Shown piece by piece: positions 10,448 to 24,606 of a stretch of 49,313 bases of DNA. Origin of the DNA: an uncultured Thermotogae bacterium (GTDB lineage Bacteria; Bipolaricaulota; Bipolaricaulia; M55B111); contig CAZDMI010000002.1 of NCBI GenBank assembly GCA_964506635.1, positions 1 through 49,313 of the forward strand, in the 5' to 3' direction. Each line of letters begins with the position of its first letter. Within the stretch, counting starts at the first letter, position 1. Below the pieces are notes generated by a model that searched no databases, was not told where the DNA came from, and saw only the letters and a list, made by a program, of their open reading frames with translations. Position numbers and translations under genes: made by a program.

Positions 10448-11434
10448 ATGCGTTATCGAAAACTTGGTAGTACAGGCTTTAAGGTGTCTGAAATAGGATA
10501 CGGCGCCTGGGGAATAGGTGAAGGTGAATGGAAGGGGAGCTCGGAAGAAAAAGCATTCGAGTCACTAAACCTGGCAATAGACAACGGAGTTAACTTTATT
10601 GATACGGCTCTGGGCTATGGCGAAGGAAAAAGCGAGGAAATAGTGGGTGAGGCAGTAAGAAAACGGGACGAAAGGGTATACATCGGCACTAAAGTTCCGC
10701 CAAAGAACGATGAATACGTGCCCGGCCCCGAAGTACCTGTGGAAGAGGCTTATCCAAAGGACTGGATCCTTGAAGCAACCGAGAAGAGCCTTGAAAACCT
10801 AGGCCAGGACAAAATCGATTTTCTTCAACTCCATGTCTGGGTGGACGAGTGGGCAAAATCGGACGGTTGGAAAGAGGCGGTTTCAGAATTGAAAGATAGC
10901 GGGATGATCTCCTCTTTTGGATTGTCCCTGGTGTTCCCGTTTCCAGAAGAAGAGCCGAATTACCCGGCCAGAGCTATCGGAACGGGTCTAATAGATGCAT
11001 GTAACGTCGTCTACAACATTTACGAACAGGAGAAACCACAGGAAAACCTTTTCCCGCTCGCAGAAGAGGAAGAGGTAGGGGTGATTGCGAAGTCTCCCCT
11101 CGACGAAGGAGCGTTGACCGGTAAGATTACCCCGGAAACGGAATTTCCGGAAGACGACTGGAGAAACTGGTACTTTAGAGAAGACCGGAAAGAAGAAGTT
11201 TATCAGCGAGCTCAGGACCTGGAATGGATGATAGAGGAAGGGGAAGTAGACTCACTCCCCGAAGGTGCACTGAGGTTCGGGCTCAGTCACTCAGCAGTTT
11301 CTACGGTCATAGTTGGTATGCGGAGCCCGAAGCACGTGGAAGAGAACGTTAGCACCTCGGACAAGGGACCGCTACCCAAGAGCTACCTTGAAAGACTAGA
11401 GGACCACGCCTGGCATCACAATTACTGGGCTTAA
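10448..11434 (+). CDS. Aldo/keto reductase
   Basis: GYGAWGIG, FIDTALGYGEGKSE (Asp/Tyr), IGTKV (Lys) and LQLH (His) form the AKR catalytic tetrad pattern. SD AGAGGTGA. Confidence 0.85.
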   Translation: MRYRKLGSTGFKVSEIGYGAWGIGEGEWKGSSEEKAFESLNLAIDNGVNFIDTALGYGEGKSEEIVGEAVRKRDERVYIGTKVPPKNDEYVPGPEVPVEEAYPKDWILEATEKSLENLGQDKIDFLQLHVWVDEWAKSDGWKEAVSELKDSGMISSFGLSLVFPFPEEEPNYPARAIGTGLIDACNVVYNIYEQEKPQENLFPLAEEEEVGVIAKSPLDEGALTGKITPETEFPEDDWRNWYFREDRKEEVYQRAQDLEWMIEEGEVDSLPEGALRFGLSHSAVSTVIVGMRSPKHVEENVSTSDKGPLPKSYLERLEDHAWHHNYWA

Positions 11435-12885: not shown

Positions 12886-14199
12886 ATGAAATTATTACTC
12901 GGTAATTATTTAATAAATCCTCGTCAGGACCATCTCAAAAAAGAGTGTGGGGTCGCGATCGAGGATGGGATGATCAGGAAAGTAGCTGGCAACGGGAAAC
13001 TCCAGGAAGAGTATCCAGAGGCCGAAGTTATAGATTTAAGAGACAAGATCCTCTCTCCTGGGTTTATCAACTCTCACATGCATTCCTACGGTATTTTATC
13101 CCATGGAATAGAGACCCCAGAAATTGGCAGTTTCAAGGACTTTCTCGAAAAATTCTGGTGGCCAGAAGTGGAGAACCAAATAGACCATGGGTTAATAGAA
13201 ATTAGTACCAGGGCAGCCGCCTTAGAACTTATTAACAGTGGCGTTACAACATTTTGTAACGTTATGGAAGCACCCAATGCCCTCCCTGGAGCCCTTGCGA
13301 CACAGGCAGAGGTATTAGACCAGTTAAATGTCAGAGCCGTGCTGTCTTTTGAGGCTTCGGAAAGAATAAGCAGGGCCAATGGAAATAAGGGGCTCAAAGA
13401 AAACGTGGATTTCTCCCTCGAAAAGGAAAACGATTCCTTGCTCTCCGGTATGATGTGTGTCCATACCACTTTTACTTGTTCTCCGGATTTTATCGAAAAA
13501 GCGTCCGCTCTGAGCAAGGAAAACGGGCTCTCAGTTCAAATGCACCTGAATGAAAGTAGTTATGAACCCGAGGTATGCAAAGACCGGCATAACCTGGCCC
13601 CTGTACAGCTTTATCGAGATTTGGGGTTCCTGGATAACCACGTTTTGGCCTCTCAGGGGGTTAAGCTAAGCGAAGAAGAAATTCAGATTTTAAAGGATAA
13701 AGGAGTCAACCTCGCGCACGTCCCGCTGTCTAACTGTGAGGTTGGTGGGGGCATAGCTCCGGTTCCAGATTTACTCGAGAAAGGGATAAACGTTTCTTTA
13801 GGTACCGACGGATATATTAACAACTTCTTTGAAGTCATGCGCGCCGCTTTCTTGATCCACAAGGGAAACCTCGAGACACCAGACGTAATGCCCGCCAGAA
13901 AGGTCTTACAGTTAGCAACGGTTAACGGGGCAAACGCTTTTGGACTCAACAAGTTGGGACGTTTGAAAAAGGGGTATCGTGCCGACGTGATTGCGCTGGA
14001 TGCGGATTTCGAAACTCCTTTTCGGGACCACAATTATTACGAGCAGTTAATTATGAGGCGGAACCCCAAACACGTCAGAGACGTCTTCATCAACGGTAAT
14101 TCAGTAATGAGGAACGGCGAATTCACTTACACTTCTGTGGATTTGAAGTCGGCCAGAAAGGAATTAAACAAAGCAGCCCATAAACTTTGGAAAGGGTGA
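12886..14199 (+). CDS. Amidohydrolase-superfamily aminohydrolase (SsnA/chlorohydrolase-like)
   Basis: SPGFINSHMHSYG (HxH), VQMHLNESSYE (HxxE) and LGTDG (Asp). 437 aa. Confidence 0.75.
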   Translation: MKLLLGNYLINPRQDHLKKECGVAIEDGMIRKVAGNGKLQEEYPEAEVIDLRDKILSPGFINSHMHSYGILSHGIETPEIGSFKDFLEKFWWPEVENQIDHGLIEISTRAAALELINSGVTTFCNVMEAPNALPGALATQAEVLDQLNVRAVLSFEASERISRANGNKGLKENVDFSLEKENDSLLSGMMCVHTTFTCSPDFIEKASALSKENGLSVQMHLNESSYEPEVCKDRHNLAPVQLYRDLGFLDNHVLASQGVKLSEEEIQILKDKGVNLAHVPLSNCEVGGGIAPVPDLLEKGINVSLGTDGYINNFFEVMRAAFLIHKGNLETPDVMPARKVLQLATVNGANAFGLNKLGRLKKGYRADVIALDADFETPFRDHNYYEQLIMRRNPKHVRDVFINGNSVMRNGEFTYTSVDLKSARKELNKAAHKLWKG

Positions 14200-14206: not shown

Positions 14207-15283
14207 ATGAATTTAGAAGTCTCTCTCCTTGGAAATACCCTAGAGAACCCGTTTGTTTTGGCTTCTGGCCCTTTAAGCTATAGCGCAGAAGGTATTATCA
14301 AGGCCGACCGGGCCGGGGCAGGGGCCATAGTAACTAAAACCATTCGCCAGGAGGCTGCGGAAAACCCTACCCCGCACATAGTTGAGTCGGACAATAATTC
14401 TTTGATAAACGCAGAAAAATGGTCCGACCTCCCCCCTGAACGATGGATCGAAGACGAAATACCCAGGGTAAATGACATCTCGGCCATGTTGATTGCAAGC
14501 ATAGGTCACACTGCCGCCGAAGTAGAAAGCTTTCTGGAGCCAGTTGAAGAAGCTGGAGCCGACGGGTTTGAACTCGTTTCTTATGACAGGAACACACTTT
14601 TGCCCATGGTAGAAAAGGCCCGTTCAATTACGAATAAGCCCGTACTCGTTAAGGTCAGCCCAAACTGGGATTCCCCGGTCGAAACTGCCCTGGAAGCACT
14701 TGAGGCCGGAGGAAGTGGGGTGACAGTAATGGATTCTCTGGGTCCGGTCCTGAAAATCGATATCGAAAAAGAGAGTCCACTGCTGGGTAGTGAAAACGGA
14801 ACTGGGTGGCTCAGTGGAGAAGCGATCAACCCGCTGATGCTAAGATACGTTGCACAGATCGCGAGTTCAACCGAAAAACCCATCATCGCCACTGGGGGGA
14901 TCACCTCGGCAGAAGACGCAATGGAAGCCTTGATGGCCGGCGCCGCTGCGACAGGGCTTTGCTCTGCCGCGATCTTGAAGGGAGTGGAGTACTTTGGAAC
15001 CCTCCGACAGGATATGGAGGATTTGATGAACTCCATGGAATATGAGACCCCATCGGAGGTAACTGGAGCGGCTTTGAAAAACGTAACCGGCAAGGAACAT
15101 TCAAACGAGTTGTCCTTCAAGTTCGATGAAAATAAATGCATAAACTGTGGCAGATGTGTGACTGTTTGCTCGTATGATGCCAGAAGTCTGGAAAATGGTA
15201 AGATGGAACTAAGTAAAGAGAGATGTAGACACTGCGGTCTGTGTGTATCAGTGTGTCCTACCGAGGCTTTAACTCATGAATAA
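14207..15283 (+). CDS. Dihydroorotate/dihydropyrimidine dehydrogenase-like flavoprotein with C-terminal 2x[4Fe-4S] ferredoxin domain (PreA-like)
   Basis: NPFVLASGPLS, IVTKTI and GGITSAEDA form a DHODH-type TIM barrel. The C-terminus has CINCGRCVTVCS and CRHCGLCVSVCP. SD AAGGGTGAT. Confidence 0.8.
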   Translation: MNLEVSLLGNTLENPFVLASGPLSYSAEGIIKADRAGAGAIVTKTIRQEAAENPTPHIVESDNNSLINAEKWSDLPPERWIEDEIPRVNDISAMLIASIGHTAAEVESFLEPVEEAGADGFELVSYDRNTLLPMVEKARSITNKPVLVKVSPNWDSPVETALEALEAGGSGVTVMDSLGPVLKIDIEKESPLLGSENGTGWLSGEAINPLMLRYVAQIASSTEKPIIATGGITSAEDAMEALMAGAAATGLCSAAILKGVEYFGTLRQDMEDLMNSMEYETPSEVTGAALKNVTGKEHSNELSFKFDENKCINCGRCVTVCSYDARSLENGKMELSKERCRHCGLCVSVCPTEALTHE

Positions 15284-15316
15284 GGGAAAGATTTTTATAC
15301 CCAAGGAGGATTCAAT

Positions 15317-17173
15317 ATGGGGCTAACCGCAGAAATTAACCTTTCGGAAAATCAGGTAAAAGTTAGAGAGACCGAAAAGGAACTCTATTCTAAATTTTTA
15401 GGGAGCAGGGGGTATGCAGCAAAAATACTCTATGACCGTGTTGGTCCCGAAGTGGATCCGCTAGATCCCGAGAACCTGCTCATATTTTCTACGGGGCCTC
15501 TAACCGGAACTCCCTGGCCAACTTCTGCTCGATACACTCTAACAGGAAAATCCCCTCTGACGGGAATATATGGATACTCTAATTCTTCCGGATATTTTGG
15601 CCCGGAGCTAAAAAAAGCAGGCTTCGACGCGCTTGTATTCTCAGGTGAGTCCTCCGAACCACAGGTTTTATTCATAGACAACCAGGACCTCCAATTAATC
15701 TCAGCTGATGAATACTGGGGTATGACTACAAAAGAAGTAGAGGATGAGCTCAAGGAAAGGTTTTCCGGAGTAAAAGTCGCCTCCATTGGACCCGCCGGAG
15801 AGAACCTGGTTAAGTTCTCTTCCGTAGTCAACGACTATAGCCGAACGGCAGCTCGCTGTGGTTTAGGAGCTGTTATGGGCTCTAAAAATTTGAAAGCCGT
15901 TGCCGTACGCGGCGAAGGTGAAGTCGACTACAGTTCTGAATTCGCGGATATTGCAAAACGGATGATGCAAAAAGTAGGGCAACACCCAGGTTCAAAATCC
16001 TTAAGAAAATGGGGTACTGCCCACTTAATAGGGCCCAAAAACGTCCGGGGAGATTTACCCACGAGAAATCATCAATACGCCCAGTTCAAAGACGCCGATC
16101 AGATAGACGCAAAGAGTCTGGATGAGTACGTTACGAAAAACTCGGGCTGTTATTCCTGTCCCATTGCCTGTTCTCGTCACTCTAAAGTGGATAAAGGTAA
16201 ATATAAGAGTGAAGTCGAGGGACCCGAGTACGAAACGATGGATTCCCTGGGGCCACTGGTGGGGAACGGTGATCTAGAATCCATCATACATGGAAACCTC
16301 TTATGCAATCGCCTTGGAATCGATACCATTTCTACGGGAGTAGTAATCGCCTTTGCAATGGAATGCCACGAAAATGGTTTACTGGATAGCGAGGACTTAA
16401 GCCTCGAATGGGGGGATAGCGAAACTGTTATCCAGCTAATTCAGGATATTTCTCACAGGCAAGGTTTAGGTGAAACACTGGCAGAGGGAGTTCAAGATGC
16501 CGCCAATAAAATAGGAGGCGGCGCTTCTTACTACGCTATGCACGTAAAAGGAATGGAGATGCCCAGACAAGAACCGAGAGTTTGTAAATCCTATGGCCTG
16601 GCTCATTCTACTTCTAATAGGGGCGCGGACCATCTTTACGCCTTACCTACAATAGATTTAACCAACAACGAGGAAGTCGGAGAAAGCTTCTTCTCCGAAT
16701 GTATGCCCGAGGTCCTTGATCACGTAGATGAGACCTGTAAGCCCGATATGATCGTCTTTACTGAAGCTTTTAACGCGATATCCGATGCACTGGGCGTCTG
16801 CAAATTCTCAACAACCGAGAACTTTGCTCTTTATCCCGAGGATCTCGCAAGAGGACTCAGTACTTTTAAAGAATTTGAGCTTGACGGAAAGGCTTTGATC
16901 AAGGCAGGAGAAAGAATTGTAAATCTAGAACGGATGTATAATCACCGTCATGGTATAGATAGAACGGACGATCAATTACCCGAGAGGATACTGGAAGAGC
17001 AAATATCGGTATACGACATGGACACCGGAGAACAGGTGGAAGAGGGTTTGGAAGTGGATTTAGCATCGATGCTCGACCGGTATTACGAATTGAGGGGTTG
17101 GACCGAGGACGGAACACCCAAAGCTTCCAAACTCGAGGAATTAGAACTGGGTAGTCTAATTGAAGACATATAA
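15317..17173 (+). CDS. Tungsten-type aldehyde:ferredoxin oxidoreductase family protein (AOR paralogue 2)
   Basis: 618 aa. CYSCPIAC plus GVCKFST cysteines, EYE and GADHLY. Collinear with the AOR at 2459-4345. SD AGGAGG. Confidence 0.9.
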   Translation: MGLTAEINLSENQVKVRETEKELYSKFLGSRGYAAKILYDRVGPEVDPLDPENLLIFSTGPLTGTPWPTSARYTLTGKSPLTGIYGYSNSSGYFGPELKKAGFDALVFSGESSEPQVLFIDNQDLQLISADEYWGMTTKEVEDELKERFSGVKVASIGPAGENLVKFSSVVNDYSRTAARCGLGAVMGSKNLKAVAVRGEGEVDYSSEFADIAKRMMQKVGQHPGSKSLRKWGTAHLIGPKNVRGDLPTRNHQYAQFKDADQIDAKSLDEYVTKNSGCYSCPIACSRHSKVDKGKYKSEVEGPEYETMDSLGPLVGNGDLESIIHGNLLCNRLGIDTISTGVVIAFAMECHENGLLDSEDLSLEWGDSETVIQLIQDISHRQGLGETLAEGVQDAANKIGGGASYYAMHVKGMEMPRQEPRVCKSYGLAHSTSNRGADHLYALPTIDLTNNEEVGESFFSECMPEVLDHVDETCKPDMIVFTEAFNAISDALGVCKFSTTENFALYPEDLARGLSTFKEFELDGKALIKAGERIVNLERMYNHRHGIDRTDDQLPERILEEQISVYDMDTGEQVEEGLEVDLASMLDRYYELRGWTEDGTPKASKLEELELGSLIEDI

Positions 17174-17342
17174 ACAATGAACCTGACAAATTTTCAAAAG
17201 AAATAAAAGTAAAAATCAATCTGTGAAGAAAGCAGAAGTAAAAACTGAATTCTTTTTTGTTGCACGTATTACCTAACTTAAGTAAAATAATGATCCTATT
17301 GATAATTGTATGACAGCTTTACAAAACATAAGGAGGAAAAGT

Positions 17343-18023
17343 ATGCCGGACGATCAAATATTGGTGAACCTGCAAGAAGCGGTGAAAGAGATGGACCAGG
17401 AAGCCGCAGAAGAGGCGGCTCAAAAAGTGGTTGATGAGGATAGGGATATCCTCGAAGCAATAGAGGCTGCTACCGAAGCAATAAGAGAAGTGGGGGACTG
17501 GTTCCAGGAAGGAGAGATATATTTACCTGAACTTACCTGGGGAGCAGAGGCCATGCAAGGGGCAATGGATATTCTTAAACCACATTTAGAGGACAAGGAC
17601 GCATCAGAAACTAGCAAGGTGCTCATTGCTGCAGTCAAAGGGGATATACACGACGTTGGTAAAAACCTTGTCGACATAATGCTGGACATATCCGGCTTCG
17701 AGATAGAAAATATCGGTACAGATATTCCTTCCATGGATATAATCGATAAAGCCGAGGAGATGGGCGCAGATATCATCGGCTTATCCGCCTTAATGACTAC
17801 TTCTATCCCTTACCAAAAAGAGGTAATCAATTTACTAGAGGATATGGATAAAAGGGAAGAATTCTACGTAGCTGTTGGTGGTGGGCCTGTCTCAAAGGAA
17901 ATAGCCCAGGATATGGGGGCTGACATCTGGGCTAAGAACGCGGCAGGTGCAGTAAAGGCATGTGAACGAGCACTGGAATCACCTTCGAAACCTTCAGAAG
18001 ATTTCGTCTTTGAGGAGGATTAA
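17343..18023 (+). CDS. Corrinoid (cobalamin)-binding methyl-carrier protein, MtmC/MtbC/MttC-like
   Basis: DxHxxG motif (DIHDVGKN), LSALMTT (SxL) and VAVGGGP. The ATG at 17343 is preceded by AGGAGG, so the in-frame upstream ATG at 17310 is less likely. Confidence 0.85.
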   Translation: MPDDQILVNLQEAVKEMDQEAAEEAAQKVVDEDRDILEAIEAATEAIREVGDWFQEGEIYLPELTWGAEAMQGAMDILKPHLEDKDASETSKVLIAAVKGDIHDVGKNLVDIMLDISGFEIENIGTDIPSMDIIDKAEEMGADIIGLSALMTTSIPYQKEVINLLEDMDKREEFYVAVGGGPVSKEIAQDMGADIWAKNAAGAVKACERALESPSKPSEDFVFEED

Positions 18024-18024
18024 T

Positions 18025-19416
18025 ATGTCTATTGATAAAGATTGGATGTTAGAAGTTCTAGACAGAACCAATACGGGAAAAGTGGTGAAGGAAAAGAAAT
18101 GGAACAATCGTATTATGCCCCAGACAATCATGGAAATAGTAAGGGAATACGACCTTAAGGGCACCTGCGATCCCGGGAATCCGATAAACCAGGACGATGA
18201 ACTTGCCGATCGTTATTTTGAAGCTGGCCTCGCTGCTGCCGAAGAACTGGGAATGCTCTGCACTGATACCCACAGAGTCGTGGATTTTTCGAAAGACGAA
18301 ATCCTGGAACGTATTGATAAAGCACCTGCAAGCTTTAATCTTGGCGGGGGCAAAGAGGAAGTAGAGTTTAAGACCAGAGATACCGAGGACGAAGTCCAGC
18401 CAAAAATGATAGCACCGTTAAGCATAGTGGTTAGCGAGGAAGACTTCGTCCCGATGGTTGAAGCTATAGCCAGTGTGGATGAAGTAGACGTTATGGAAGG
18501 TCCTTCGCTGGAAACAGTCTGGGGTAGAGAATTGAAATCAGGTGTGCCTCATGAGCTGCTTGCAGGAAAATACCAGGCCGAATTAATGAAAGAAGGACTC
18601 GAACGAGCTGGTAGAGAAGGCCTTGGTCTATTCGCCGTAGGAAGTTCAACTACGGAATACGGTTTTCTGGGCGGTTATGGCCTAACTGGAGGTTATAAAC
18701 CGGAAAGAGACATCTCCCTCATACTTTCTCCGGCCGGAGTGAAAACTTCTTACGAATCTCTATTCAAACTCGCTCAAACTTATAATGCCGGGGGAGAAAA
18801 TATATACGCGGGGTCCTGGGTAATGTTAGGAGGTTATGCTGGAGGACCGGAGGGCACCACTGTGGCAGCAATAGCCAACAGTCTTCTTTTGTACACGGTA
18901 TACCAGGCCTCGAACGGAGCCTGCTTCCCGCTCGATATGCATTACATGGGGAATACCGATGGTAAAAACCAGTGGTCTCTGGGGCTAACGTTCCAGGCCC
19001 TGAGTAGAAATACCCACCTTGCCCTGAATTCAGTTTTAAATCAGGTCAACGGACCTTCAACGAAGGCTTTACTCTATGAAACTGCCGTGGGTATGATGAA
19101 CCTGGCAGTATCAGGGGCTACTTCCTGTACGGGAACTCGATCAGCCGGTGGGAGGTTAACCAACCACTTAACTCCTCTTGAAATCGAATTTGCCGGGAAA
19201 GTCTTCAAATCCGCAGCCGGGATGAGTCGTTCGGACGCAAACGAGATCGCCAAAGAGATAATCCCAAAATACGAGGACGGGCTCGAAGATCCTTCCGACG
19301 GCCAGAGCTTTAAGGAATGTTACGATCTTGAGAATCACCAACCGGGTGAAGAATGGAAAAGGAAATACGATGAGGTCGTGGAAGAGATCTCTGACCTTGG
19401 TTTAACTCTGGATTAA
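18025..19416 (+). CDS. MtmB-family (monomethylamine-type) corrinoid methyltransferase homologue lacking pyrrolysine
   Basis: CTDTHRVV, LGGYAGGPEGTT, SFKECYDLE and a C-terminal ISDLGLTL match remembered M. barkeri MtmB strings (CTDTHRIV, FGGYAGGIEETT, FQECYDV, LEDLGLVF). The frame is uninterrupted with no in-frame TAG. The ATG at 18025 lies 1 nt after the corrinoid gene stop and is preceded by GAGGAGGA. Confidence 0.75.
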   Translation: MSIDKDWMLEVLDRTNTGKVVKEKKWNNRIMPQTIMEIVREYDLKGTCDPGNPINQDDELADRYFEAGLAAAEELGMLCTDTHRVVDFSKDEILERIDKAPASFNLGGGKEEVEFKTRDTEDEVQPKMIAPLSIVVSEEDFVPMVEAIASVDEVDVMEGPSLETVWGRELKSGVPHELLAGKYQAELMKEGLERAGREGLGLFAVGSSTTEYGFLGGYGLTGGYKPERDISLILSPAGVKTSYESLFKLAQTYNAGGENIYAGSWVMLGGYAGGPEGTTVAAIANSLLLYTVYQASNGACFPLDMHYMGNTDGKNQWSLGLTFQALSRNTHLALNSVLNQVNGPSTKALLYETAVGMMNLAVSGATSCTGTRSAGGRLTNHLTPLEIEFAGKVFKSAAGMSRSDANEIAKEIIPKYEDGLEDPSDGQSFKECYDLENHQPGEEWKRKYDEVVEEISDLGLTLD

Positions 19417-19440
19417 CAGATCACAAAGTTTGTAGACAGA

Positions 19441-19483
19441 AAGGATGTCGGAGAGAGGAAATTCACATTTCTCCGACATCCTT
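19441..19483 (+). terminator. Hairpin downstream of the methyltransferase gene
   Basis: AAGGATGTCGGAGA (19441-19454) pairs perfectly with TCTCCGACATCCTT (19470-19483), giving a 14-bp stem and a 15-nt loop. There is no strong U-tract. Confidence 0.4.
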
Positions 19484-19692
19484 ATACAATCACCTTCCTC
19501 CCAATTTTGCAACCCTTAATGAATGAATAATCGCAAGGGGGAGTTTTGTTTAACAAAAGGAAGAGACCTGGAAAAATTGCCATGGCAAGGAACCAAGAGG
19601 TCCAGGATTGAACCTTTCTTAATTGCCTTACCAAATACCCCCCTTCAGAGCCCATATAAGCTAACCCCTCTACCTTTACCGTAATATTACTG

Positions 19693-19727: not shown

Positions 19728-19750
19728 CGTGATATTGGAAAAAATAGTTC

Positions 19751-20539
19751 CTATCCAGCCATATAACCACCATCTGCCAAAACAAAAGAGCCCGTTACAA
19801 AGGACGAAGCATCGCTCGCCAGGAATAGGGTGATTTTTGCAACCTCTTTCGGCGTCCCAAGCCTACCCATTGGATTGCTCCCCGTTCGAACTTGCTCTTC
19901 GGCGTCCTCCACGCCGGACTCTTCCATGTCTTCTATTACCTGGTCCATCATGGCTGTATCTATATGGCCCGGCACCACAGCGGTGACGCGAATGTCATCA
20001 TCAACGTATTCCAGAGCGGAAGTTTTAGTCAACATCAAAAGCCCGGCTTTGGAAATGCAATAAGGAGATGCACCCGGGAAAGGGCGCATGCCCGCAGTTG
20101 AAGCTACGTTTACTACTTTTCCCCCGCCGACCTTTTTCATGTACGGGACTGCATGTTTGGTACATAGCCATGGCCCAGAAAGATTCACATCCAAAGTACG
20201 GTTCCACTCATCAACTGAAAGCTCGTGAGCTTTTTTATCGGGAGGCGCAAGCGTCCCGGCACTGTTGACCAAGATATTTACTTTGTCAAATTCATCTACA
20301 GTACGCTCGGTTAATTGTTTAACCTCTTCTTCGCTGCTTACGTCCGTAGGCATACCAACTAAATCGTGTTTCGATACTCCCTCGATATCACTGGCCTGGT
20401 TAATGGTTTCCTGGATACCTTCTTCATCGATATCCGCCACTGTTACCCTGGCACCTTCTTTAGCAAATAACTTAGATATAGCTCTACCCTGACCTGACGC
20501 TCCACCAGTTACTATGGCTACTTGATCTTCAAGTCTCAT
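19751..20539 (-). CDS. Short-chain dehydrogenase/reductase (SDR)
   Basis: TGGASGQG, NSAG and YCISK motifs. The ATG at 20539 (MRLEDQVAIVTGG) is preceded by AAGGTGAT and does not overlap the upstream gene. The longer 20623 start is rejected. Confidence 0.85.
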   Translation of the reverse strand: MRLEDQVAIVTGGASGQGRAISKLFAKEGARVTVADIDEEGIQETINQASDIEGVSKHDLVGMPTDVSSEEEVKQLTERTVDEFDKVNILVNSAGTLAPPDKKAHELSVDEWNRTLDVNLSGPWLCTKHAVPYMKKVGGGKVVNVASTAGMRPFPGASPYCISKAGLLMLTKTSALEYVDDDIRVTAVVPGHIDTAMMDQVIEDMEESGVEDAEEQVRTGSNPMGRLGTPKEVAKITLFLASDASSFVTGSFVLADGGYMAG

Positions 20540-20547
20540 GGTTTTAA

Positions 20548-21561
20548 TCACCTTTGCTCTATATTTTCTACTTTTTGAATTTTGCTTTCGAAAGCCGACT
20601 CGGATGCAGCCAGCACGGAGCACAAGTCGCGGTATGCATCTTCAGCCCGCATCTCCGGTTCTTTATCCTCTTTTAACGCATAATAAAAATCTTCAAATTC
20701 TTTATAGAAACTGGAACGTTCGCCTGATTCAAACAGCGTCTGGAGGCTCCCCTGCTGATGCTGGCTTACTTCGTCGGGACTAACAACCAACGTTTCTCCC
20801 GGAGTCCACAGGTGAATATGGCCAGTTCGTTCAGTAGCTGATGCAAAAGACCAATTTACCGAACAAAGATTACCCGATTCAAATTTCAGGTTGAATATAG
20901 CAGTATCCACCCCACCCAGGTGTTCCTTCAGATCTTGCCCAAACGTATGAACCAGATCAATCTCTCCCATAAGGTAACGAACCACGTCAATCATATGAAC
21001 GCCATGATCAAGAAGGAAACCGGAGGCGTGCTCGGGATTTTCCCGCCATGGCCGGCTCGCTATTTCGTCGTCCTTTCCCACGGGTTGCATCCATTGATAG
21101 GTCATCAAAAAGGGATTCGCGCTGGACTCTTTTGAAAGAAAATCCCTGGCAAACTGAATAGTGTCTTCGTATCTAAAATTCTCAGCTACAAGCAACTTTA
21201 TTCCGTATTTTTCCTTAAGCTCCAGCATTTTTTCGGCATCTTCCAAAGAAGTCGAGATTGGCTTCTCACAGATAACGTCCTTCCCCTGGCTGGCAGCTTT
21301 TGAAGCAACCTCGTAGTTCATTCTCGGAGGAAGCGCTAGATCTACTACTTCTACGTCATTACGATCCAGCAATTCTTCGTAATCTTGATAAACGTTTTCC
21401 GTGGCTAGACCGATTTTTTCGGCAAATTTAACCGCCTTACTCTTGGTCCTGTTTGCCAGTGCTACGATCTCGTATTTGTCCTTCAACTGTTTCAGTGCCG
21501 GCCAGTGCAACTGGCGAGCTGCTACACCAGTACCGATAATACCTAGCTTTACCTTGTTCAT
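20548..21561 (-). CDS. Gfo/Idh/MocA-family NAD(P) sugar oxidoreductase
   Basis: KLGIIGTGVAARQ Rossmann motif and VICEKPIS (EKP motif). 337 aa. Confidence 0.85.
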   Translation of the reverse strand: MNKVKLGIIGTGVAARQLHWPALKQLKDKYEIVALANRTKSKAVKFAEKIGLATENVYQDYEELLDRNDVEVVDLALPPRMNYEVASKAASQGKDVICEKPISTSLEDAEKMLELKEKYGIKLLVAENFRYEDTIQFARDFLSKESSANPFLMTYQWMQPVGKDDEIASRPWRENPEHASGFLLDHGVHMIDVVRYLMGEIDLVHTFGQDLKEHLGGVDTAIFNLKFESGNLCSVNWSFASATERTGHIHLWTPGETLVVSPDEVSQHQQGSLQTLFESGERSSFYKEFEDFYYALKEDKEPEMRAEDAYRDLCSVLAASESAFESKIQKVENIEQR

Positions 21562-22080
21562 AATTTATTCAACCTCACCCCTTCTAAATATACTAATTAA
21601 ATTTTGGGTACTCCCTCGTCACTACGAATTTTTCTGGTTCTCTGAAAAACCAATTTCGTTTAAGCTTAACTTACCAACTTTTGATTAGGATTACCCTTCT
21701 CTAAGTTCTTCAAAGACCTTATGTCCAGTTAAAAAACCAAAATTAATAAGTAAGATATCTAAAACAGTTTTGGGGAAGACCCCATTTGAAATAAGTAACA
21801 TCTTTCTTGGTGCATCTTCTCTACGGCTCTGCAATATTCTGATATACAATTAAAGTCTGAAAATTTTAGCCTGCAAAGTAGGTTGCCTGGGCCCTTTTAA
21901 GTTGTAAAACAAATTACTCGTTTCTGGATTAAAAGTATACTGCAGTCGCGATACTTGTTTATAAGGTACTATTTAGTTAAGTCTGTTGATTTTTCCATAC
22001 ACGAGCGGTCAAAAGATAGACGGCTCAACTTATCGAAGGGCTGAGAAAGTGTATGAATTTTTTCTACACCCCCCTACATT

Positions 22081-22749
22081 TTATTTTTCCTGGTTTACGG
22101 AGGTGAAGTAACCTGTAGAAGCATCACATTCGGAAATACTATAGAAATTACGAGTAACTAACACCACCCAAATCGGGAGAAAAAAAAGAAACACTACTTC
22201 ATAAAGCGAAAAAGATATAATATAGCCGATGATGATTGCTGGAATAAATGTGATTATGGCAGTCCGTTGAAAGTTTTTCCACGCCATATCAAAAGATCTC
22301 CTGATCCCTTCAAATACCCCCTTTTCCGTTAGGAGGACAATGGGTAACAAATAGATGAAGAAGAATGGGTAAAAGGCAAGGGGGATAAACAGATAAAAAC
22401 TGAAAAAATTTAGGAATAGGTATAGAATCAGAAGTCCGGCCGGGGTAATTAATATCATTGAAAAAAGAAGGCTGGGTAGGTTCTTTAAAACGTAGAGGGC
22501 ATTATCCCCGAGTCCAAAATTAACACCGCTTGTAACCCCCCATACGTCTATGGCAGTCAGACTCACAGCTATTAAGGCAAAAAACCCAAAACAGGAGAAG
22601 AACGTACCCAGCACTACCTTGTTCGAGAAAGGGACCAACCTGACCGAAGCAACATATCCCCCCACCAGGAAGAGATAAGGTAAGGTCAGCCGGATAAAAT
22701 TTTTAAAATAGATCTCTAAGGATTCTTTTAGGTCCGTAAGTATATGCAA
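22081..22749 (-). CDS. Polytopic membrane protein of unknown function
   Basis: 222 aa with about 5-6 long hydrophobic segments. TTG start with weak RBS. Sits at the distal end of the ABC transporter gene string. Confidence 0.5.
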   Translation of the reverse strand: MHILTDLKESLEIYFKNFIRLTLPYLFLVGGYVASVRLVPFSNKVVLGTFFSCFGFFALIAVSLTAIDVWGVTSGVNFGLGDNALYVLKNLPSLLFSMILITPAGLLILYLFLNFFSFYLFIPLAFYPFFFIYLLPIVLLTEKGVFEGIRRSFDMAWKNFQRTAIITFIPAIIIGYIISFSLYEVVFLFFLPIWVVLVTRNFYSISECDASTGYFTSVNQEK

Positions 22750-22824
22750 TTTACCAATACAGAATTGAAGTCAAAATTCCCTAATCCGGTTAACACCGTC
22801 AATTTTGCCCCTAGTAGTCAAAAT

Positions 22825-23637
22825 TTAATCCACCCCACCTAGCTGAAGTCCTGTTTCAAGATATTTTTGTCCAAATATTAAGATCAACAGCGTAGGAACT
22901 AATAGCAATATACCACCGGCCGTCATTACTCCATAATCAAGATTATATTGGGTACTTCTGACAGCCACCTTAAGAGCAGCTGGGAAAAGTCTCTTTGATG
23001 GTTCCTTTATAAAAGTCGCTCCATATAAATACTCCATCCATGCAAAACGGAACGCAAACAAGAATCCTGCTATCAGAGCCGGCTTGGATAACGGGAGGAA
23101 AATTCTGTAGAACCTCTTAACTGGTCCCGCCCCGTCGACTATCGCTGCCTCGACGATAGGGTCTTCCACTGTGTCAAAGTAATTGGTGAACAGAAAAGTA
23201 TTCAATGGCATATTCGAGAGTTGATATATGAATACTATTGCCAGCCGGCTATTTAACCACCCCAGTTCGCTGAACACCGAGTACATTGGGATGATGTTTA
23301 GGGCTGGGGGAAGTAAAAGTGTAATAAGAACTGCCCCGAAGAAAAACTTCTTGAAGGGCATCTGTAACTGAGAAAAAACGTAACCGGCCATTGAGCAAAC
23401 CACTACTGAGACAAATGCAGAGAGAGTTGCTACCATCAAGGAGTTCAGTATGCTGGTAACTATATTCGATGTAGTTAACAAGTCAACGTAACTTGAAATC
23501 GATAGGTCCGTGGGTATGTAAGAAGGTGGGAAACTCACTTGCTCTTGCACGGACAAGTTAGCTATCCAGTATATAGGTAGCAAGGTAAACAATGAATAAC
23601 TAATAAGAATTAGTATTCGAGTCTTTTTTTCGCTCAT
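22825..23637 (-). CDS. Carbohydrate ABC transporter permease (MalG-like)
   Basis: EAA-loop EAAIVDGAGPVKRFYRIFLPLSKP and six hydrophobic segments. SD AAGGAGGA. Confidence 0.9.
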   Translation of the reverse strand: MSEKKTRILILISYSLFTLLPIYWIANLSVQEQVSFPPSYIPTDLSISSYVDLLTTSNIVTSILNSLMVATLSAFVSVVVCSMAGYVFSQLQMPFKKFFFGAVLITLLLPPALNIIPMYSVFSELGWLNSRLAIVFIYQLSNMPLNTFLFTNYFDTVEDPIVEAAIVDGAGPVKRFYRIFLPLSKPALIAGFLFAFRFAWMEYLYGATFIKEPSKRLFPAALKVAVRSTQYNLDYGVMTAGGILLLVPTLLILIFGQKYLETGLQLGGVD

Positions 23638-23646
23638 TTTTCCTCC

Positions 23647-24525
23647 TTAATCTGCAAACTCGACGCCGGAAACTTTGATGTATATATATACCAGTATCAA
23701 ATTCATAGCCAGAGCACCAAGGCTTACTGCTGATCCGTAAGAAAACTCACCCAGATCGAACGCCGCCTGGTACCCATGGAGCGGGAACACTTTCGTCGCA
23801 TTCAAAGGTCCCCCATTGGTAAGCAATAAAATCAAGGAAAACTGGTTAAACGCCCACACAGTAGTCAAGATCAGAGCAACTACTAGAAATGGAAGTAAAA
23901 TAGGTAGAGCAACTCTGGTGAAAAATATCCATTCAGAAGCTCCATCTATTTTCGCCACTTCGACCAACTGTGGAGAAATAGATGTCATTCCTGAACTCAA
24001 AAGTAGTATTACAAACGGGGTTCCCCACCAGACGCTGGCAACGATAACCAGGGTCATCGCCGCAGTGCCATTCCCCAAGAAATTAATCCTTGGAAACCCA
24101 ACAGCCTCGATTATCCTATTGATGAAGCCGATATTTTTCGCTGCCATTAATCTCCAGCTGAAAGCCGCTACCACGACGGAACTCAACCAGGGAATGATAA
24201 TTATGGGCCGGAAAAACTTTTCAACCGCTGAATCGGCCCTGTAGAGAAAATAGGAAATTGAAGTACCAATAAACATCTGAAGCGTTACGCTCCCAATAGT
24301 AAAAATGGCGGTGTTCTTGAGGGAGGCTAAGGTTGCGGGGTCAGTAAAAACCTCGACGAAGTTCTGCAACCCGACAAAATCCCACTCCTGATGAAAATTC
24401 ATCAGAGTAACGTCATGCAATGCGATATTCAGGTTCCACGACCATACGAAGAACTGTAAGAAAAACAGTATCCCCATGGCAGGTAATAAAAACAACAAAG
24501 GAACAAGCACGCTATATCTTCTCAT
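23647..24525 (-). CDS. Carbohydrate ABC transporter permease (MalF-like)
   Basis: EAA-loop EVAKIDGASEWIFFTRVALPILLP. The ATG at 24525 (MRRYSVLVPLLF) is preferred over the 24585 start. Confidence 0.85.
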   Translation of the reverse strand: MRRYSVLVPLLFLLPAMGILFFLQFFVWSWNLNIALHDVTLMNFHQEWDFVGLQNFVEVFTDPATLASLKNTAIFTIGSVTLQMFIGTSISYFLYRADSAVEKFFRPIIIIPWLSSVVVAAFSWRLMAAKNIGFINRIIEAVGFPRINFLGNGTAAMTLVIVASVWWGTPFVILLLSSGMTSISPQLVEVAKIDGASEWIFFTRVALPILLPFLVVALILTTVWAFNQFSLILLLTNGGPLNATKVFPLHGYQAAFDLGEFSYGSAVSLGALAMNLILVYIYIKVSGVEFAD

Positions 24526-24606
24526 ATAATACCCCCGTAAATATAAATAAGAAGTGGGGGTAGAATCGCCCACCCCCACTCCCATTGCTTGTCAATTTTG
24601 TTAAGG

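What the first reader, a model, noticed from the sequence alone, without database searches (positions are those of the whole stretch)
17343..19416. Corrinoid protein plus MtmB-family methyltransferase that lacks the pyrrolysine codon: possible new substrate class (secondary amine such as sarcosine or an N-methyl heterocycle)
Seen: a DxHxxG corrinoid protein (17343-18023) is followed 1 nt later by a 463-aa ORF. That ORF carries CTDTHRVV, LGGYAGGPEGTT, SFKECYDLE and ISDLGLTL, which is collinear with my recollection of M. barkeri MtmB. The frame has no in-frame TAG. In my manual alignment of REGLGLFAVGSST with RPGMGV-O-GPETSL, the pyrrolysine position (Pyl202) is occupied by Phe203 (TTC, 18631-18633).

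Established: non-Pyl members of the MttB (trimethylamine) superfamily use quaternary amines such as glycine betaine, proline betaine and carnitine. As far as I know, non-Pyl relatives of MtmB are far less explored.

Inference: by analogy, this enzyme may demethylate an N-monomethyl compound other than methylamine. Candidates are sarcosine, N-methylhydantoin or creatinine-derived products, and methylated purines. That would fit the adjacent hydantoinase/deaminase operon and a betaine-rich hypersaline setting. No MT2 (MtbA/MtqA-type) methyltransferase or RamA activase is in the window.
Basis: partly seen in the sequence, partly recalled or inferred. Interest (0 to 1): 0.72.

Follow-up and report, generated by a model that had tools for sequence, protein, structure and literature searches.

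The report
Pyrrolysine-free MtmB-type methyltransferase with corrinoid partner
This is an intact two-gene vitamin-B12-dependent demethylase module, a relative of the methanogen methylamine enzyme that lacks its special amino acid pyrrolysine, sitting inside a breakdown island for a nitrogen-ring or sugar-linked compound; its substrate is unknown but is probably a methylated nucleobase- or nucleoside-like molecule rather than methylamine.

Summary
Window 17343-18023 encodes a 226-aa corrinoid protein with a DxHxxG motif. One base later, 18025-19416 encodes a 463-aa full-length MtmB-family protein (Pfam 257 bits; predicted fold TM 0.90 to M. barkeri MtmB). It has no in-frame TAG, and Phe203 (TTC 18631-18633) aligns with Pyl202.

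It is not a decayed copy. dN/dS against a 96%-identical relative is 0.03, and hundreds of full-length homologues exist. It belongs to one of at least 25 deep, almost entirely pyrrolysine-free MtmB clades.

Only one non-Pyl MtmB homologue has a known function: MtqB, which acts on tetramethylammonium and choline (2026). I could not obtain its sequence, so membership of its clade is untested.

New findings:
- The partner MT2 gene (URO-D type), present in three sister contigs, has been deleted in this window. A 70-nt remnant remains.
- The module is embedded in a conserved island: sugar kinase, class I aldolase, two deaminase-type amidohydrolases, hydantoinase, PreA-like reductase, AFORs and an FTR-like protein.
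- Across the clade, neighbours are xanthine-dehydrogenase-type enzymes, nucleoside-type transporters and deaminases.
- The residue at the Pyl position tracks these contexts.

Best reading: an anaerobic demethylase for a methylated N-heterocycle or nucleoside-like compound. The substrate is unproven.

The parts
17343..18023 (+). Cognate corrinoid protein (226 aa) with DxHxxG (DIHDVG, residues 101-106)
   Evidence: PF02310 and PF02607. Best NCBIfam matches are MtgC/MtbC-type corrinoid proteins, all below cut-off. SD sequence before the ATG at 17343 and motif position. The same 226-aa gene is called in L001.
18025..19416 (+). Non-pyrrolysine MtmB-family methyltransferase (MT1, 463 aa)
   Evidence: PF05369, 257 bits, full length. 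1L2Q/1NTH E 9e-49. AF2 plus Foldseek TM 0.90-0.92. dN/dS 0.03 against L001. No in-frame TAG.
18631..18633 (+). TTC codon for Phe203, the residue aligned with Pyl202 of M. barkeri MtmB
   Evidence: The position is specific to subclade and gene context.
19443..19482 (+). Conserved 12-bp intergenic stem-loop after the MT1 gene (GGATGTCGGAGA...TCTCCGACATCC)
   Evidence: Sequence. It is kept in L001 and L003, where the only changes are to wobble pairs. It has no T-run and was not called as a terminator.
19546..19615 (+). Remnant of a deleted URO-D-type MT2 gene. It keeps the start codon, 6 codons, and then about codons 76-93.
   Evidence: L001, L003 and L009 carry an intact 347-aa PF01208 gene here. 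The window has 120 nt where L001 has about 1147 nt. Alignment. tblastn fragments at 19563-19615. Coordinates.
15317..17173 (+). Aldehyde:ferredoxin oxidoreductase family tungstoenzyme (AFOR2), immediately upstream of the corrinoid protein gene
   Evidence: PF02730 and PF01314. Conserved next to the module in L001, L009 and L004, and in the 46-48% subclade.
14207..15283 (+). PreA-like flavoprotein (DHO_dh domain plus two 4Fe-4S clusters); candidate ring reductase
   Evidence: PreA model 166 bits, below cut-off. Also found near homologues in L001, L004, L009, L026, L059 and L063.
12886..14199 (+). SsnA-like amidohydrolase with HxH and HxxE motifs
   Evidence: NCBIfam SsnA models score 274 and 246 bits, below their cut-offs. 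Motifs.
11491..12870 (+). D-hydantoinase / dihydropyrimidinase
   Evidence: TIGR02033, 516 bits, above the 393 cut-off. Also found near homologues in L001, L004, L009, L059 and L063.
10448..11434 (+). Aldo/keto reductase
   Evidence: PF00248. Also present in L009, L019 and L024.
9567..10433 (+). FTR-like protein (homologue of formylmethanofuran:H4MPT formyltransferase)
   Evidence: PF01913 and PF02741. 1FTR 128 bits. Orthologues at 51-61% identity in 7 homologue loci.
8492..9544 (+). Zn-dependent alcohol/polyol dehydrogenase
   Evidence: Conserved in 8 loci.
7062..8468 (+). TRZ/ATZ-family deaminase-type amidohydrolase (closest to MTA/SAH and 5'-deoxyadenosine deaminases)
   Evidence: 4F0R 203 bits. 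HxH and HxxE motifs. This family is the most frequent neighbour after the corrinoid protein, in 21 of 40 long loci.
6308..7051 (+). DhnA-type class I aldolase (MJ0400 / ADH-synthase-like)
   Evidence: Conserved in 11 loci.
4655..6154 (+). FGGY sugar kinase, xylulokinase-like
   Evidence: (XylB model 346 bits, cut-off 380). Conserved in 13 loci.
2450..4345 (+). Second AFOR-family enzyme, at the head of the same-strand gene row
   Evidence: Homologues in L004, L013 and others.
19751..25995 (-). Divergent row of genes: SDR, GFO/IDH/MocA oxidoreductase, membrane protein, two ABC permeases and a CUT1-type sugar-binding protein. It is conserved only in the close lineage, so whether it belongs to the system is uncertain.

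Best explanation
Genes 17343-19416 encode the substrate-specific half of a three-component corrinoid methyl-transfer system.

Proposed mechanism:
1. The MtmB-fold TIM-barrel enzyme (MT1) binds a methylated substrate and passes its methyl group to Co(I) of the adjacent corrinoid protein.
2. The resulting methyl-Co(III) is unloaded by an MT2. That MT2 is URO-D-type in sister genomes and pterin-binding, hence tetrahydrofolate-directed, in Chloroflexi relatives.
3. The methyl group thereby enters C1 metabolism. The host is probably a member of Bipolaricaulota/Acetothermia.

Because there is no pyrrolysine to activate methylamine, the substrate must carry its own leaving-group activation. I propose a methylated nitrogen heterocycle of the nucleobase or nucleoside kind. 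Examples are a methylamino group on an amidine carbon, as in N6-methyladenine/adenosine, or a cationic ring N-methyl group.

Proposed fate of the demethylated product, handled by the surrounding island:
- deamination by the TRZ/ATZ enzymes;
- ring reduction by the PreA-like enzyme;
- ring opening by the SsnA-like enzyme and the hydantoinase;
- transfer of a C1 unit by the FTR-like protein;
- catabolism of a sugar-like part by the FGGY kinase, class I aldolase, ADH and AFOR.

Shown here: family, fold, absence of Pyl, gene pairing, purifying selection, conserved neighbourhoods.
Inferred: direction of transfer (demethylation), substrate class, and the order of the steps.

In this particular genome the local MT2 gene has been deleted, so unloading must rely on an MT2 encoded elsewhere.
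For: Identity and integrity of the module:
- Identity of MT1 and the corrinoid protein.
- Functional constraint: dN/dS is 0.03 for MT1 and 0.066 for the corrinoid protein against L001. On the window's own branch there are 8 amino-acid changes against 55 synonymous changes, similar to the sister branch.
- MT2 partners next to homologues: URO-D in L001, L003 and L009; Pterin_bind in 9 long loci; a RACo activase next to homologues in 5 loci.

Neighbourhood of clade members:
- In 40 loci of at least 8 kb: corrinoid protein in 36, TRZ/ATZ or SsnA-type amidohydrolase in 21, FGGY in 13, aldolase in 11, GlcD-like in 14.
- From ORF clustering: an XDH-type Mo hydroxylase in 10 loci with its FAD subunit in 8, and Bmp/PnrA-type plus BPD_transp_2 nucleoside-type ABC transporters in about 8.
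- After de-replication at 80% identity (33 groups): TRZ/ATZ in 14, XDH in 8, BPD_transp_2 in 11.
- These neighbours best match 5'-deoxyadenosine deaminase and XdhA/PucD models.
- Example operon L069: Bmp-ABC-XDH-CP-MT1-TRZ/ATZ-MttB homologue-CP-RACo.
- L026 joins the sugar module, XDH, CP-MT1 and the PreA-like gene in a single locus.

Supporting observations:
- The residue at the Pyl position tracks subclade and context.
- A different MtmB clade shows the operon adenine deaminase (TIGR01178, 657 bits, above cut-off)-CP-URO-D-MT1.
- The window trio hydantoinase / SsnA-like / flavin-FeS reductase parallels HyuA/SsnA/YgfK of the reductive uric acid (2,8-dioxopurine) pathway (bioRxiv 10.1101/2025.05.19.654654; 10.1101/2025.04.24.650524).
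- The host ArgG is 79-89% identical to Bipolaricaulota/Acetothermia proteins.
Against: - No assay exists, and no characterised close homologue. The nearest characterised relative, MtqB, uses tetramethylammonium and choline (PMC13044021).
- The window's own F/Y subclade mostly lacks XDH and Bmp-type genes. Instead it has a CUT1 sugar/glycoside-type binding protein (L007 SBP scores 207 bits to T. maritima MalE3) and often an MttB homologue, a family known only for quaternary amines.
- No nucleoside hydrolase or phosphorylase is present in the conserved clusters.
- The SsnA-like and PreA-like proteins score below their NCBIfam cut-offs, so the analogy with the 2,8-dioxopurine pathway is not orthology.
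- The MT2 gene is deleted in this window, and no activase is present.
- Some loci are related to each other, so the neighbourhood counts overstate the number of independent observations.
Confidence: 0.42

Rival explanations
1. Quaternary-amine demethylase of the MtqB type. On this reading the enzyme removes a methyl group from choline, tetramethylammonium, or a trimethylammonium compound with a glycerol or sugar-like backbone, such as glycerophosphocholine or a betaine-lipid head group. The MttB homologues seen in relatives would take other methyl groups of the same molecule.
For: - The only characterised non-Pyl MtmB homologue, MtqB, demethylates tetramethylammonium and choline (PMC13044021).
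- MttB homologues with their own corrinoid protein sit next to the Y-subclade genes in 10 long loci.
- The conserved binding protein is CUT1-type, related to trehalose/maltose-binding and sulfoquinovosyl-glycerol-binding proteins.
- The proteome is acidic, which suggests a salt-rich setting where such solutes abound.
Against: - The window has no MttB homologue and no BCCT or OpuA-type betaine transporter.
- The deaminase-type amidohydrolases, hydantoinase, PreA-like reductase and FTR-like protein have no role in the catabolism of choline or betaines.
- The protein is only 27-29% identical to sequences near Pyl-MtmB, which is where the MtqB clade is reported to branch (PMC13044021 Fig. 6 legend).
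Confidence: 0.15
2. O-demethylase for a methylated sugar, cyclitol or methoxy-bearing sugar-derived solute, for example O-methyl deoxy-sugars, pinitol-type methyl-inositols or mycosporine-like amino acids. The kinase, aldolase, ADH and AFOR genes would then catabolise the carbohydrate skeleton.
For: - In-window genes: a sugar-type ABC transporter, xylulokinase-like FGGY kinase, class I aldolase, Zn-ADH, AKR, SDR and an inositol-dehydrogenase-like GFO protein.
- The GlcD/CCG pair (in relatives) or AFOR (in the window) fits oxidation of a lactaldehyde- or glycolaldehyde-type product.
- A GH38 mannosidase and a mannose isomerase lie nearby.
Against: - No MtmB-family or MttB-family enzyme is known to act on O-methyl groups. 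Known O-demethylase MT1s belong to other families (my own knowledge).
- Two deaminase-type amidohydrolases, the hydantoinase and the FTR-like protein point to nitrogen chemistry.
- Sister subclades sit with XDH and nucleoside transporters.
Confidence: 0.14
3. One reading: a demethylase of a simple N-monomethyl compound, namely sarcosine, or N-methylhydantoin and other creatinine-derived products. The hydantoinase and amidohydrolases would process the ring.
For: - The hydantoinase (above its equivalog cut-off) and two cytosine-deaminase-superfamily amidohydrolases are in the same gene row, and this recurs in L001, L004, L009, L059 and L063.
- Another MtmB clade lies next to a dimethylglycine/sarcosine-dehydrogenase-like gene and an MttB homologue (L092).
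Against: - The sugar kinase, aldolase, ADH and FTR genes, which are conserved with the module at 50-60% identity in Chloroflexi, have no place in sarcosine or creatinine catabolism.
- There are no sarcosine reductase or glycine-cleavage genes here.
- An unactivated secondary aliphatic amine is a poor methyl donor without a Pyl-like activating group (inference from the Pyl mechanism; PMC9842639).
Confidence: 0.1
4. The module is on its way to being lost. With the MT2 gene deleted, the MT1 and corrinoid protein genes would be non-functional leftovers in this genome.
For: The MT2 gene, intact in L001, L003 and L009, is reduced to a 70-nt remnant here. There is no activase or alternative MT2 in the 49 kb.
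Against: - Both reading frames are intact with strong ribosome-binding sites.
- The window-specific branch shows 8 amino-acid changes against 55 synonymous changes in MT1, no worse than the sister branch.
- MT2 enzymes and activases are commonly shared among several systems and can be encoded elsewhere (PMC13044021 for MtbA and RamA).
Confidence: 0.06
5. A genuine monomethylamine:corrinoid methyltransferase that works without pyrrolysine.
For: Databases name all homologues 'monomethylamine:corrinoid methyltransferase'. MtqB shows a low side activity with monomethylamine, 11 nmol/min/mg (PMC13044021).
Against: - Pyl202 is replaced by Phe, and the position is not conserved in the clade.
- The gene context is catabolism of a complex substrate with a dedicated transporter, not ammonium or methylamine uptake.
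- Pyl is held to be required for activating methylamine (PMC9842639).
Confidence: 0.03

Closest known systems
MtmB, monomethylamine:corrinoid methyltransferase of Methanosarcina barkeri (PDB 1NTH, 1L2Q)
   Same: Same Pfam family (PF05369) over the full length. Same TIM-barrel fold (TM 0.90-0.92). Same gene pairing with a DxHxxG corrinoid protein. CTDTHR and GGYAGG motifs are conserved.
   Different: Only 27% identity. No UAG/pyrrolysine, with Phe203 at that position. Bacterial host. Embedded in a heterocycle/sugar catabolic island rather than a methanogen mtmCB-mtbA-ramA setting.
MtqB/MtqC of Methanococcoides methylutens Q3c (tetramethylammonium/choline:corrinoid methyltransferase; PMC13044021, 2026)
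   Same: A non-Pyl member of the MtmB superfamily, paired with its own corrinoid protein. It shows that Pyl-free MtmB homologues are real methyltransferases acting on substrates other than methylamine.
   Different: MtqB is archaeal and feeds MtbA/CoM. Its clade is reported to branch next to the Pyl-MtmBs. The window protein's named relatives are Chloroflexi, Acidimicrobiia and Bathyarchaeia MAG proteins, and its gene context is unrelated. A direct sequence comparison was not possible because the MtqB sequence was not obtainable with these tools.
Non-Pyl MttB-superfamily methyltransferases (MtgB, MtpB, MtcB, MtyB)
   Same: Same logic: a Pyl-free relative of a Pyl enzyme works with a corrinoid protein, an MT2 and an activase, and the substrate is proposed to mimic the Pyl-amine adduct (PMC13044021 discussion; PMC9768040).
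   Different: A different sequence family (PF06253). Foldseek gives only TM about 0.45 and 12% identity. The known substrates are all quaternary amines.
Reductive uric acid / 2,8-dioxopurine pathway (XdhD, YgfK, SsnA, HyuA and others) of E. coli and Clostridia
   Same: The window carries hydantoinase, an SsnA-like amidohydrolase and a flavin/Fe-S reductase side by side. Related loci add an XDH-type Mo hydroxylase. This is the same chemical logic: dearomatise, then open the rings.
   Different: The SsnA-like and reductase proteins are below the family cut-offs and are not YgfK orthologues. The window has no XdhD, YgeW, YgeX or YgeY. That pathway has no methyltransferase module.

Membership tests
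MtmB family (Pfam PF05369) | Full-length match to the family profile above the gathering score | tested here: met
   257 bits against a cut-off of 25; profile positions 4-450 of 450.
MtmB family (Pfam PF05369) | TIM-barrel fold of M. barkeri MtmB | tested here: met
   AF2 model with pLDDT 91.7. Foldseek TM 0.90-0.92 and rmsd 2.2 A to 1NTH, 1L2Q and 1TV2.
Monomethylamine methyltransferase MtmB in the strict sense (Pyl enzyme) | In-frame UAG encoding pyrrolysine at the position of Pyl202 | tested here: not met
   No in-frame TAG. TTC (Phe203) aligns with Pyl202.
Monomethylamine methyltransferase MtmB in the strict sense (Pyl enzyme) | pylTSBCD present in the genome | not testable with these tools
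   Only 49 kb of the genome is available. It contains no tRNA gene and no pyl genes. TAG is used as a stop codon in 3 of 34 genes.
Monomethylamine methyltransferase MtmB in the strict sense (Pyl enzyme) | Methylamine:corrinoid methyl transfer activity | not testable with these tools
   Requires an enzyme assay.
MtqB clade (tetramethylammonium/choline methyltransferase) | Groups phylogenetically with ACT9XH_RS04775 and the Methanococcoides homologues | not tested
   The MtqB sequence is not in the paper's text or supplements and was not found among named cluster members.
MtqB clade (tetramethylammonium/choline methyltransferase) | Conserved Met/Cys and aromatic residues around the docked ligand | not testable with these tools
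   The paper gives only logo positions, not residue numbers.
MtqB clade (tetramethylammonium/choline methyltransferase) | Methanogen context with MtqC and MtbA-type CoM methyltransferase | tested here: not met
   The host is bacterial (Bipolaricaulota-like), and the neighbours are catabolic genes.
Three-component corrinoid methyltransferase system (MT1 + corrinoid protein + MT2, plus activase) | MT1 adjacent to a B12-binding protein with DxHxxG | tested here: met
   The corrinoid protein is next to the homologue in 36 of 40 long loci.
Three-component corrinoid methyltransferase system (MT1 + corrinoid protein + MT2, plus activase) | MT2 (URO-D, pterin-binding or MtrH type) encoded with the module | tested here: not met
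   Only a 70-nt remnant remains in the window. The gene is intact in L001, L003 and L009, and a pterin-binding MT2 is present in 9 relatives.
Three-component corrinoid methyltransferase system (MT1 + corrinoid protein + MT2, plus activase) | Reductive activase (RamA/RACo) | tested here: not met
   None in the window. A RACo gene lies next to homologues in 5 loci. The rest of the genome was not available.
Reductive purine (2,8-dioxopurine) degradation module | HyuA-type hydantoinase | tested here: met
   TIGR02033, 516 bits against a cut-off of 393.
Reductive purine (2,8-dioxopurine) degradation module | SsnA aminohydrolase | tested here: inconclusive
   SsnA models score 274 and 246 bits, below their cut-offs of 444 and 455. 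HxH and HxxE motifs are present.
Reductive purine (2,8-dioxopurine) degradation module | YgfK reductase and XdhD molybdenum enzyme | tested here: not met
   The window has a PreA-like DHO_dh plus 2x[4Fe-4S] protein and AFORs instead. No XDH-family gene is in the window. XDH-type genes do occur next to clade homologues elsewhere.

The most novel reading that the evidence does not exclude
This clade of pyrrolysine-free MtmB homologues would be the missing anaerobic N-demethylases for methylated nucleobases and nucleosides: N6-methyladenine/adenosine and other exocyclic or ring N-methyl purines and pyrimidines, possibly also methylxanthines.

- The substrate's own amidine ring would play the part that the pyrroline ring of pyrrolysine plays in the Pyl-methylamine adduct.
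- Different subclades, marked by the residue at the Pyl position, would take different methyl positions.
- The methyl groups of nucleic-acid debris would then feed acetogenic or fermentative C1 metabolism in Bipolaricaulota, Anaerolineae and Bathyarchaeia.
Probability: 0.28. Interest if true: 0.8.

Novelty: new variant of a known kind. Interest (0 to 1): 0.6.

Why it matters
Pyrrolysine-free MtmB homologues are numerous. This search found 869 clusters at 50% identity, in at least 25 deep clades. They are routinely annotated as 'monomethylamine methyltransferase' and counted as evidence of methylamine use in Chloroflexi, Bathyarchaeia and other sediment lineages. Only one of them has a known function.

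This work shows that one large clade travels with purine-type hydroxylases, nucleoside-type transporters, deaminases and ring-opening enzymes, and that the Pyl-equivalent residue tracks those contexts. That gives a concrete, testable substrate hypothesis.

It also bears on an open question. Anaerobic N-demethylation of methylated purines such as caffeine has been observed in sediments, with no enzyme assigned (bioRxiv 10.64898/2026.01.06.697959).

Finally, it warns against reading these genes as markers of methylamine metabolism.

Tried and rejected
- **MtqB sequence.** I could not obtain it for a direct clade test. The paper's text and supplements carry no sequence. Two look-ups of cluster names (20 representatives) found no Methanococcoides entry.
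- **Genome-collection scan.** An alignment query would have been more useful.
- **NCBIfam.** It has no model that matches the MT1.
- **RNA elements.** Rfam (no cobalamin riboswitch) and tRNA scans of the window were empty. The promoter/terminator scan was at background level.
- **Decayed Pyl gene: rejected.** The evidence is dN/dS, the branch-specific counts and hundreds of full-length homologues.
- **Phe203 as a conserved functional substitute for Pyl: rejected.** The column is variable.
- **More specific substrate stories.** I considered the trimethylguanosine cap, methanopterin or other ribityl cofactors, mycosporines, glyceryl-trimethylhomoserine, trigonelline/homarine and the products of methylthioadenosine. 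I could not discriminate among them with sequence data.

Full report
**Observation**

The two genes are as described.
- ORF 17343-18023(+) follows an AAGGAGG ribosome-binding site. It encodes 226 aa with B12-binding and B12-binding_2 domains and DIHDVG at residues 101-106.
- Its stop codon ends at 18023. The next gene starts at 18025 behind GAGGAGG, which suggests translational coupling.
- ORF 18025-19416 encodes 463 aa, ends in TAA and has no in-frame TAG.
- It matches Pfam MtmB (PF05369) end to end at 257 bits and the M. barkeri MtmB1 crystal-structure sequences at E 9e-49.
- The pairwise alignment is ungapped around the pyrrolysine site and puts Phe203 (TTC, 18631-18633) opposite Pyl202. 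A 137-sequence alignment gives the same column.
- An AlphaFold2 model built on 34 homologues (pLDDT 91.7) superposes on 1NTH, 1L2Q and 1TV2 at TM 0.90-0.92. MttB and MtgB come next, at TM about 0.45.

**Place in the family**

An exhaustive profile-free search found 869 representative clusters (50% identity) at E up to 1e-3, and 174 at E up to 1e-30.
- Clustering 137 full-length sequences gives at least 25 deep groups at about 34% identity.
- In all but M. barkeri MtmB itself, an ordinary amino acid occupies the Pyl column.
- The window protein belongs to a group of 38 representatives (35-67% identity to it) and is 27-29% identical to M. barkeri MtmB.
- Its named relatives are MAG proteins from Chloroflexi/Anaerolineae, Acidimicrobiia and Bathyarchaeia, all labelled 'monomethylamine:corrinoid methyltransferase'.
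- NCBIfam has no model for it.

**Literature**

- Non-Pyl MtmB homologues have long been known to exist. The first function was published in 2026: MtqB of Methanococcoides methylutens Q3c demethylates tetramethylammonium and choline, with weak activity on methylamine. In that paper's 1,061-sequence tree the remaining non-Pyl MtmBs are of unknown function (PMC13044021).
- Another non-Pyl member is the most strongly induced protein in dichloromethane-grown 'Ca. Formimonas warabiya' (PMC9768040).
- I could not obtain the MtqB sequence, so whether the window protein lies in its clade is untested.

**Close relatives and the lost MT2**

Three contigs carry 95-96% identical proteins at about 87% DNA identity. 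They are L001/L002 (a MAG deposited as 'uncultured Thermotogae bacterium'), L003 and L009.
- In all three, a 347-aa URO-D-family gene (PF01208, weakly MtaA-like) follows the MT1 gene.
- In the window, about 1147 nt are replaced by 120 nt.
- What remains is the start codon with six codons at 19546, joined to about codons 76-93 and running to 19615.
- So this genome has lost its local MT2 through deletions.
- The MT1 and corrinoid genes nevertheless look healthy. dN/dS against L001 is 0.03 and 0.066, the lowest of the five genes compared.
- The window's own branch has 8 amino-acid changes against 55 synonymous changes in MT1. The L001 branch has 5 against 51.

**Host**

- ArgG of the window is 79-89% identical to proteins of Ca. 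Bipolaricaulota/Acetothermia MAGs.
- The encoded proteins are acidic (D+E 16.1%, K+R 9.6%), which fits a salt-rich habitat.
- TAG ends 3 of 34 genes.

**Neighbourhood in the window**

The same strand carries an uninterrupted row of genes from 2450 to 19416:

| Start | Gene product |
|---|---|
| 2450 | AFOR |
| 4655 | xylulokinase-like FGGY kinase |
| 6308 | MJ0400-like class I aldolase |
| 7062 | TRZ/ATZ deaminase-type amidohydrolase (closest structure an MTA/SAH deaminase) |
| 8492 | Zn-ADH |
| 9567 | FTR-like protein |
| 10448 | aldo/keto reductase |
| 11491 | D-hydantoinase (above its equivalog cut-off) |
| 12886 | SsnA-like amidohydrolase |
| 14207 | PreA-like flavin/Fe-S reductase |
| 15317 | AFOR |
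| 17343 | corrinoid protein |
| 18025 | MT1 |

**Conservation of that neighbourhood**

I fetched 79 metagenome loci with an alignment query, plus contigs for individual homologues.
- Among 40 loci of at least 8 kb, tblastn finds a corrinoid protein in 36, a TRZ/ATZ or SsnA-type amidohydrolase in 21, FGGY in 13, the aldolase in 11, a GlcD-like oxidase in 14, Zn-ADH in 8, the FTR-like protein in 7, an MttB homologue in 10, a pterin-binding MT2 in 9, AFOR in 9, hydantoinase in 5 and the PreA-like protein in 6.
- In the 56-60% identity relatives the order is fixed: sugar-type ABC transporter, pterin-binding MT2, corrinoid protein, MT1, often corrinoid protein plus MttB homologue, then FGGY, aldolase, GlcD, CCG protein, TRZ/ATZ, Zn-ADH and FTR-like.
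- These relatives include MAGs that NCBI labels Chloroflexi.
- The window has the same set rearranged, with AFOR in place of GlcD/CCG.

**Clade-wide pattern**

All-against-all clustering of the ORFs in the fetched loci of at least 6 kb exposed further recurrent neighbours:
- an XDH-family molybdenum hydroxylase in 10 loci, with its FAD subunit in 8;
- Bmp/PnrA-type binding proteins with BPD_transp_2 permeases and double ATPases in about 8;
- RACo activases in 5;
- GntR/UTRA regulators in 7.

The amidohydrolases best match 5'-deoxyadenosine deaminase models, and the Mo enzymes best match XdhA/PucD, all below their cut-offs. After collapsing the MT1 proteins at 80% identity (33 groups), TRZ/ATZ remains in 14, XDH in 8 and the nucleoside-type permeases in 11.

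The residue in the Pyl column tracks subclade and context:
- F (window lineage) and Y go with the sugar-kinase/aldolase/TRZ-ATZ/FTR set.
- D and I, and part of the T sequences, go with XDH and the Bmp-type transporter. These types often occur as two or three paralogues in one locus.
- One T type goes with AFOR, GlcD and TRZ/ATZ.

L026 joins the sugar module, XDH, CP-MT1 and a PreA-like gene in one locus.

Other clades differ:
- One shows adenine deaminase (equivalog, 657 bits)-corrinoid protein-URO-D-MT1.
- One Desulfobacteraceae clade sits with a dimethylglycine/sarcosine-dehydrogenase-like gene and an MttB homologue.
- Three lie beside pyl genes and split Pyl-MtmB genes.

**Interpretation**

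What is shown is an intact, constrained MT1 plus corrinoid protein of the MtmB family without pyrrolysine, embedded in a conserved catabolic island.

What I infer is that it demethylates a methylated nitrogen heterocycle of the nucleobase or nucleoside kind. The reasons are as follows.
- Both Pyl-free families characterised so far act on substrates that need no Pyl activation.
- The neighbours are deaminases, ring reductases, ring-opening amidohydrolases, purine-type hydroxylases and nucleoside-type transporters.
- The hydantoinase / SsnA-like / flavin-FeS reductase trio mirrors HyuA/SsnA/YgfK of the reductive uric acid pathway (bioRxiv 10.1101/2025.05.19.654654 and 10.1101/2025.04.24.650524).
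- A methylamino group on an amidine carbon resembles the Pyl-methylamine adduct. This is my inference, extending the mimicry idea in PMC13044021.
- The sugar kinase, aldolase, ADH and AFOR would handle a pentose-like part. The FTR-like protein could conserve a formyl unit from ring opening. Both roles are speculative.

**Weak points**

- The window's F/Y subclade mostly lacks XDH and Bmp-type genes.
- Its conserved binding protein resembles disaccharide- and glycoside-binding proteins.
- MttB homologues point to quaternary amines.
- No nucleoside-cleaving enzyme is in the clusters.
- The local MT2 is gone.

Quaternary-amine, O-methyl-sugar and N-methylhydantoin/sarcosine readings therefore remain open. 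I put the heterocycle reading at about 0.4.

**Novelty**

The kind of system is known: a Pyl-free MtmB homologue acting as a corrinoid-dependent MT1. This clade, its gene context and the context-linked residue at the Pyl site are not described in the papers I could search.

Anaerobic N-demethylation of caffeine has been observed in sediments, with Anaerolineae and Bathyarchaeia enriched and no enzyme assigned (bioRxiv 10.64898/2026.01.06.697959). This makes the hypothesis directly testable.

Noticed in passing
window 19417-19750, against L001 7734-9093 and L003 2806-4000: The URO-D-type MT2 gene, intact in three sister contigs, is reduced here to a 21-codon remnant by two deletions. The first junction shows microhomology (TGGGA-AA).
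   Followed up: yes
window 19443-19482: A 12-bp stem-loop between the MT1 gene and the MT2 remnant. It is kept in L001 and L003, where the only changes are to G-U wobble pairs. It has no T-run, so it is not a classical terminator.
   Followed up: partly
window 36001-49313 against 1-36000: G+C jumps from 0.40-0.48 to 0.54-0.55 at about 36 kb. Beyond that point lie the arginine genes (carA, carB, argH, argG) and the LysX/ArgX-type amino-acid biosynthesis genes. The lower-G+C catabolic region may be horizontally acquired, or the difference may reflect expression level. I did not test for assembly chimerism.
   Followed up: no
window 41968-43224 (ArgG); L002 record title: The closest named ArgG relatives (79-89% identity) are from Ca. 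Bipolaricaulota/Acetothermia. The sister MAG that carries the 96%-identical MT1 is deposited as 'uncultured Thermotogae bacterium'. The deposited label may be wrong.
   Followed up: partly
window, 34 genes: The proteome is acidic (D+E 16.1%, K+R 9.6%), which suggests adaptation to high salt. Stop-codon usage is TAA 25, TGA 6, TAG 3.
   Followed up: partly
window 9567-10433: A homologue of formylmethanofuran:H4MPT formyltransferase in a bacterium (128 bits to 1FTR). It is conserved at 51-61% identity in 7 loci next to the MT1 clade, always near the TRZ/ATZ amidohydrolase and the Zn-ADH. Its role is unknown.
   Followed up: partly
window 230-1264(-); L083 2686-3723: A 2,4-diaminopentanoate-dehydrogenase-like (amine dehydrogenase) gene lies at the edge of the island. 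A 68%-identical copy sits inside the L083 cluster, between the TRZ/ATZ gene and the aldolase.
   Followed up: no
L088 4095-9374: In a different MtmB clade (about 28% identical to the window protein), the operon reads adenine deaminase (TIGR01178, above cut-off)-corrinoid protein-URO-D-MtmB homologue-PocR/AraC regulator. This suggests demethylation of a methyladenine.
   Followed up: partly
L092 7279-13406: A large Desulfobacteraceae MtmB-homologue cluster (173 members) sits with a DAO/FAO_M/GCV_T protein (dimethylglycine/sarcosine-dehydrogenase-like) and an MttB homologue.
   Followed up: no
L038, L061, L035, L040, L042, L047, L073: Two to four MtmB-homologue plus corrinoid-protein pairs occur per locus. 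Their residues at the Pyl column differ (D, I, T, N, S, R), and they lie beside nucleoside-type ABC transporters. This is reminiscent of position-specific demethylases for a substrate with several methyl groups.
   Followed up: partly
L089, L090, L093: Full-length non-Pyl MtmB homologues lie next to pylB/C/D or PylS genes and next to 200-aa MtmB fragments, which are Pyl genes split at UAG by the gene caller. Pyl and non-Pyl paralogues therefore coexist in some genomes.
   Followed up: no
window 26611-35657: GH38 alpha-mannosidase, a type I phosphomannose isomerase-like gene, an M19 dipeptidase, a GntR/FCD regulator and a sulfatase follow the ABC transporter. This is ordinary carbohydrate-utilisation content, and I established no link to the methyltransferase module.
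   Followed up: no
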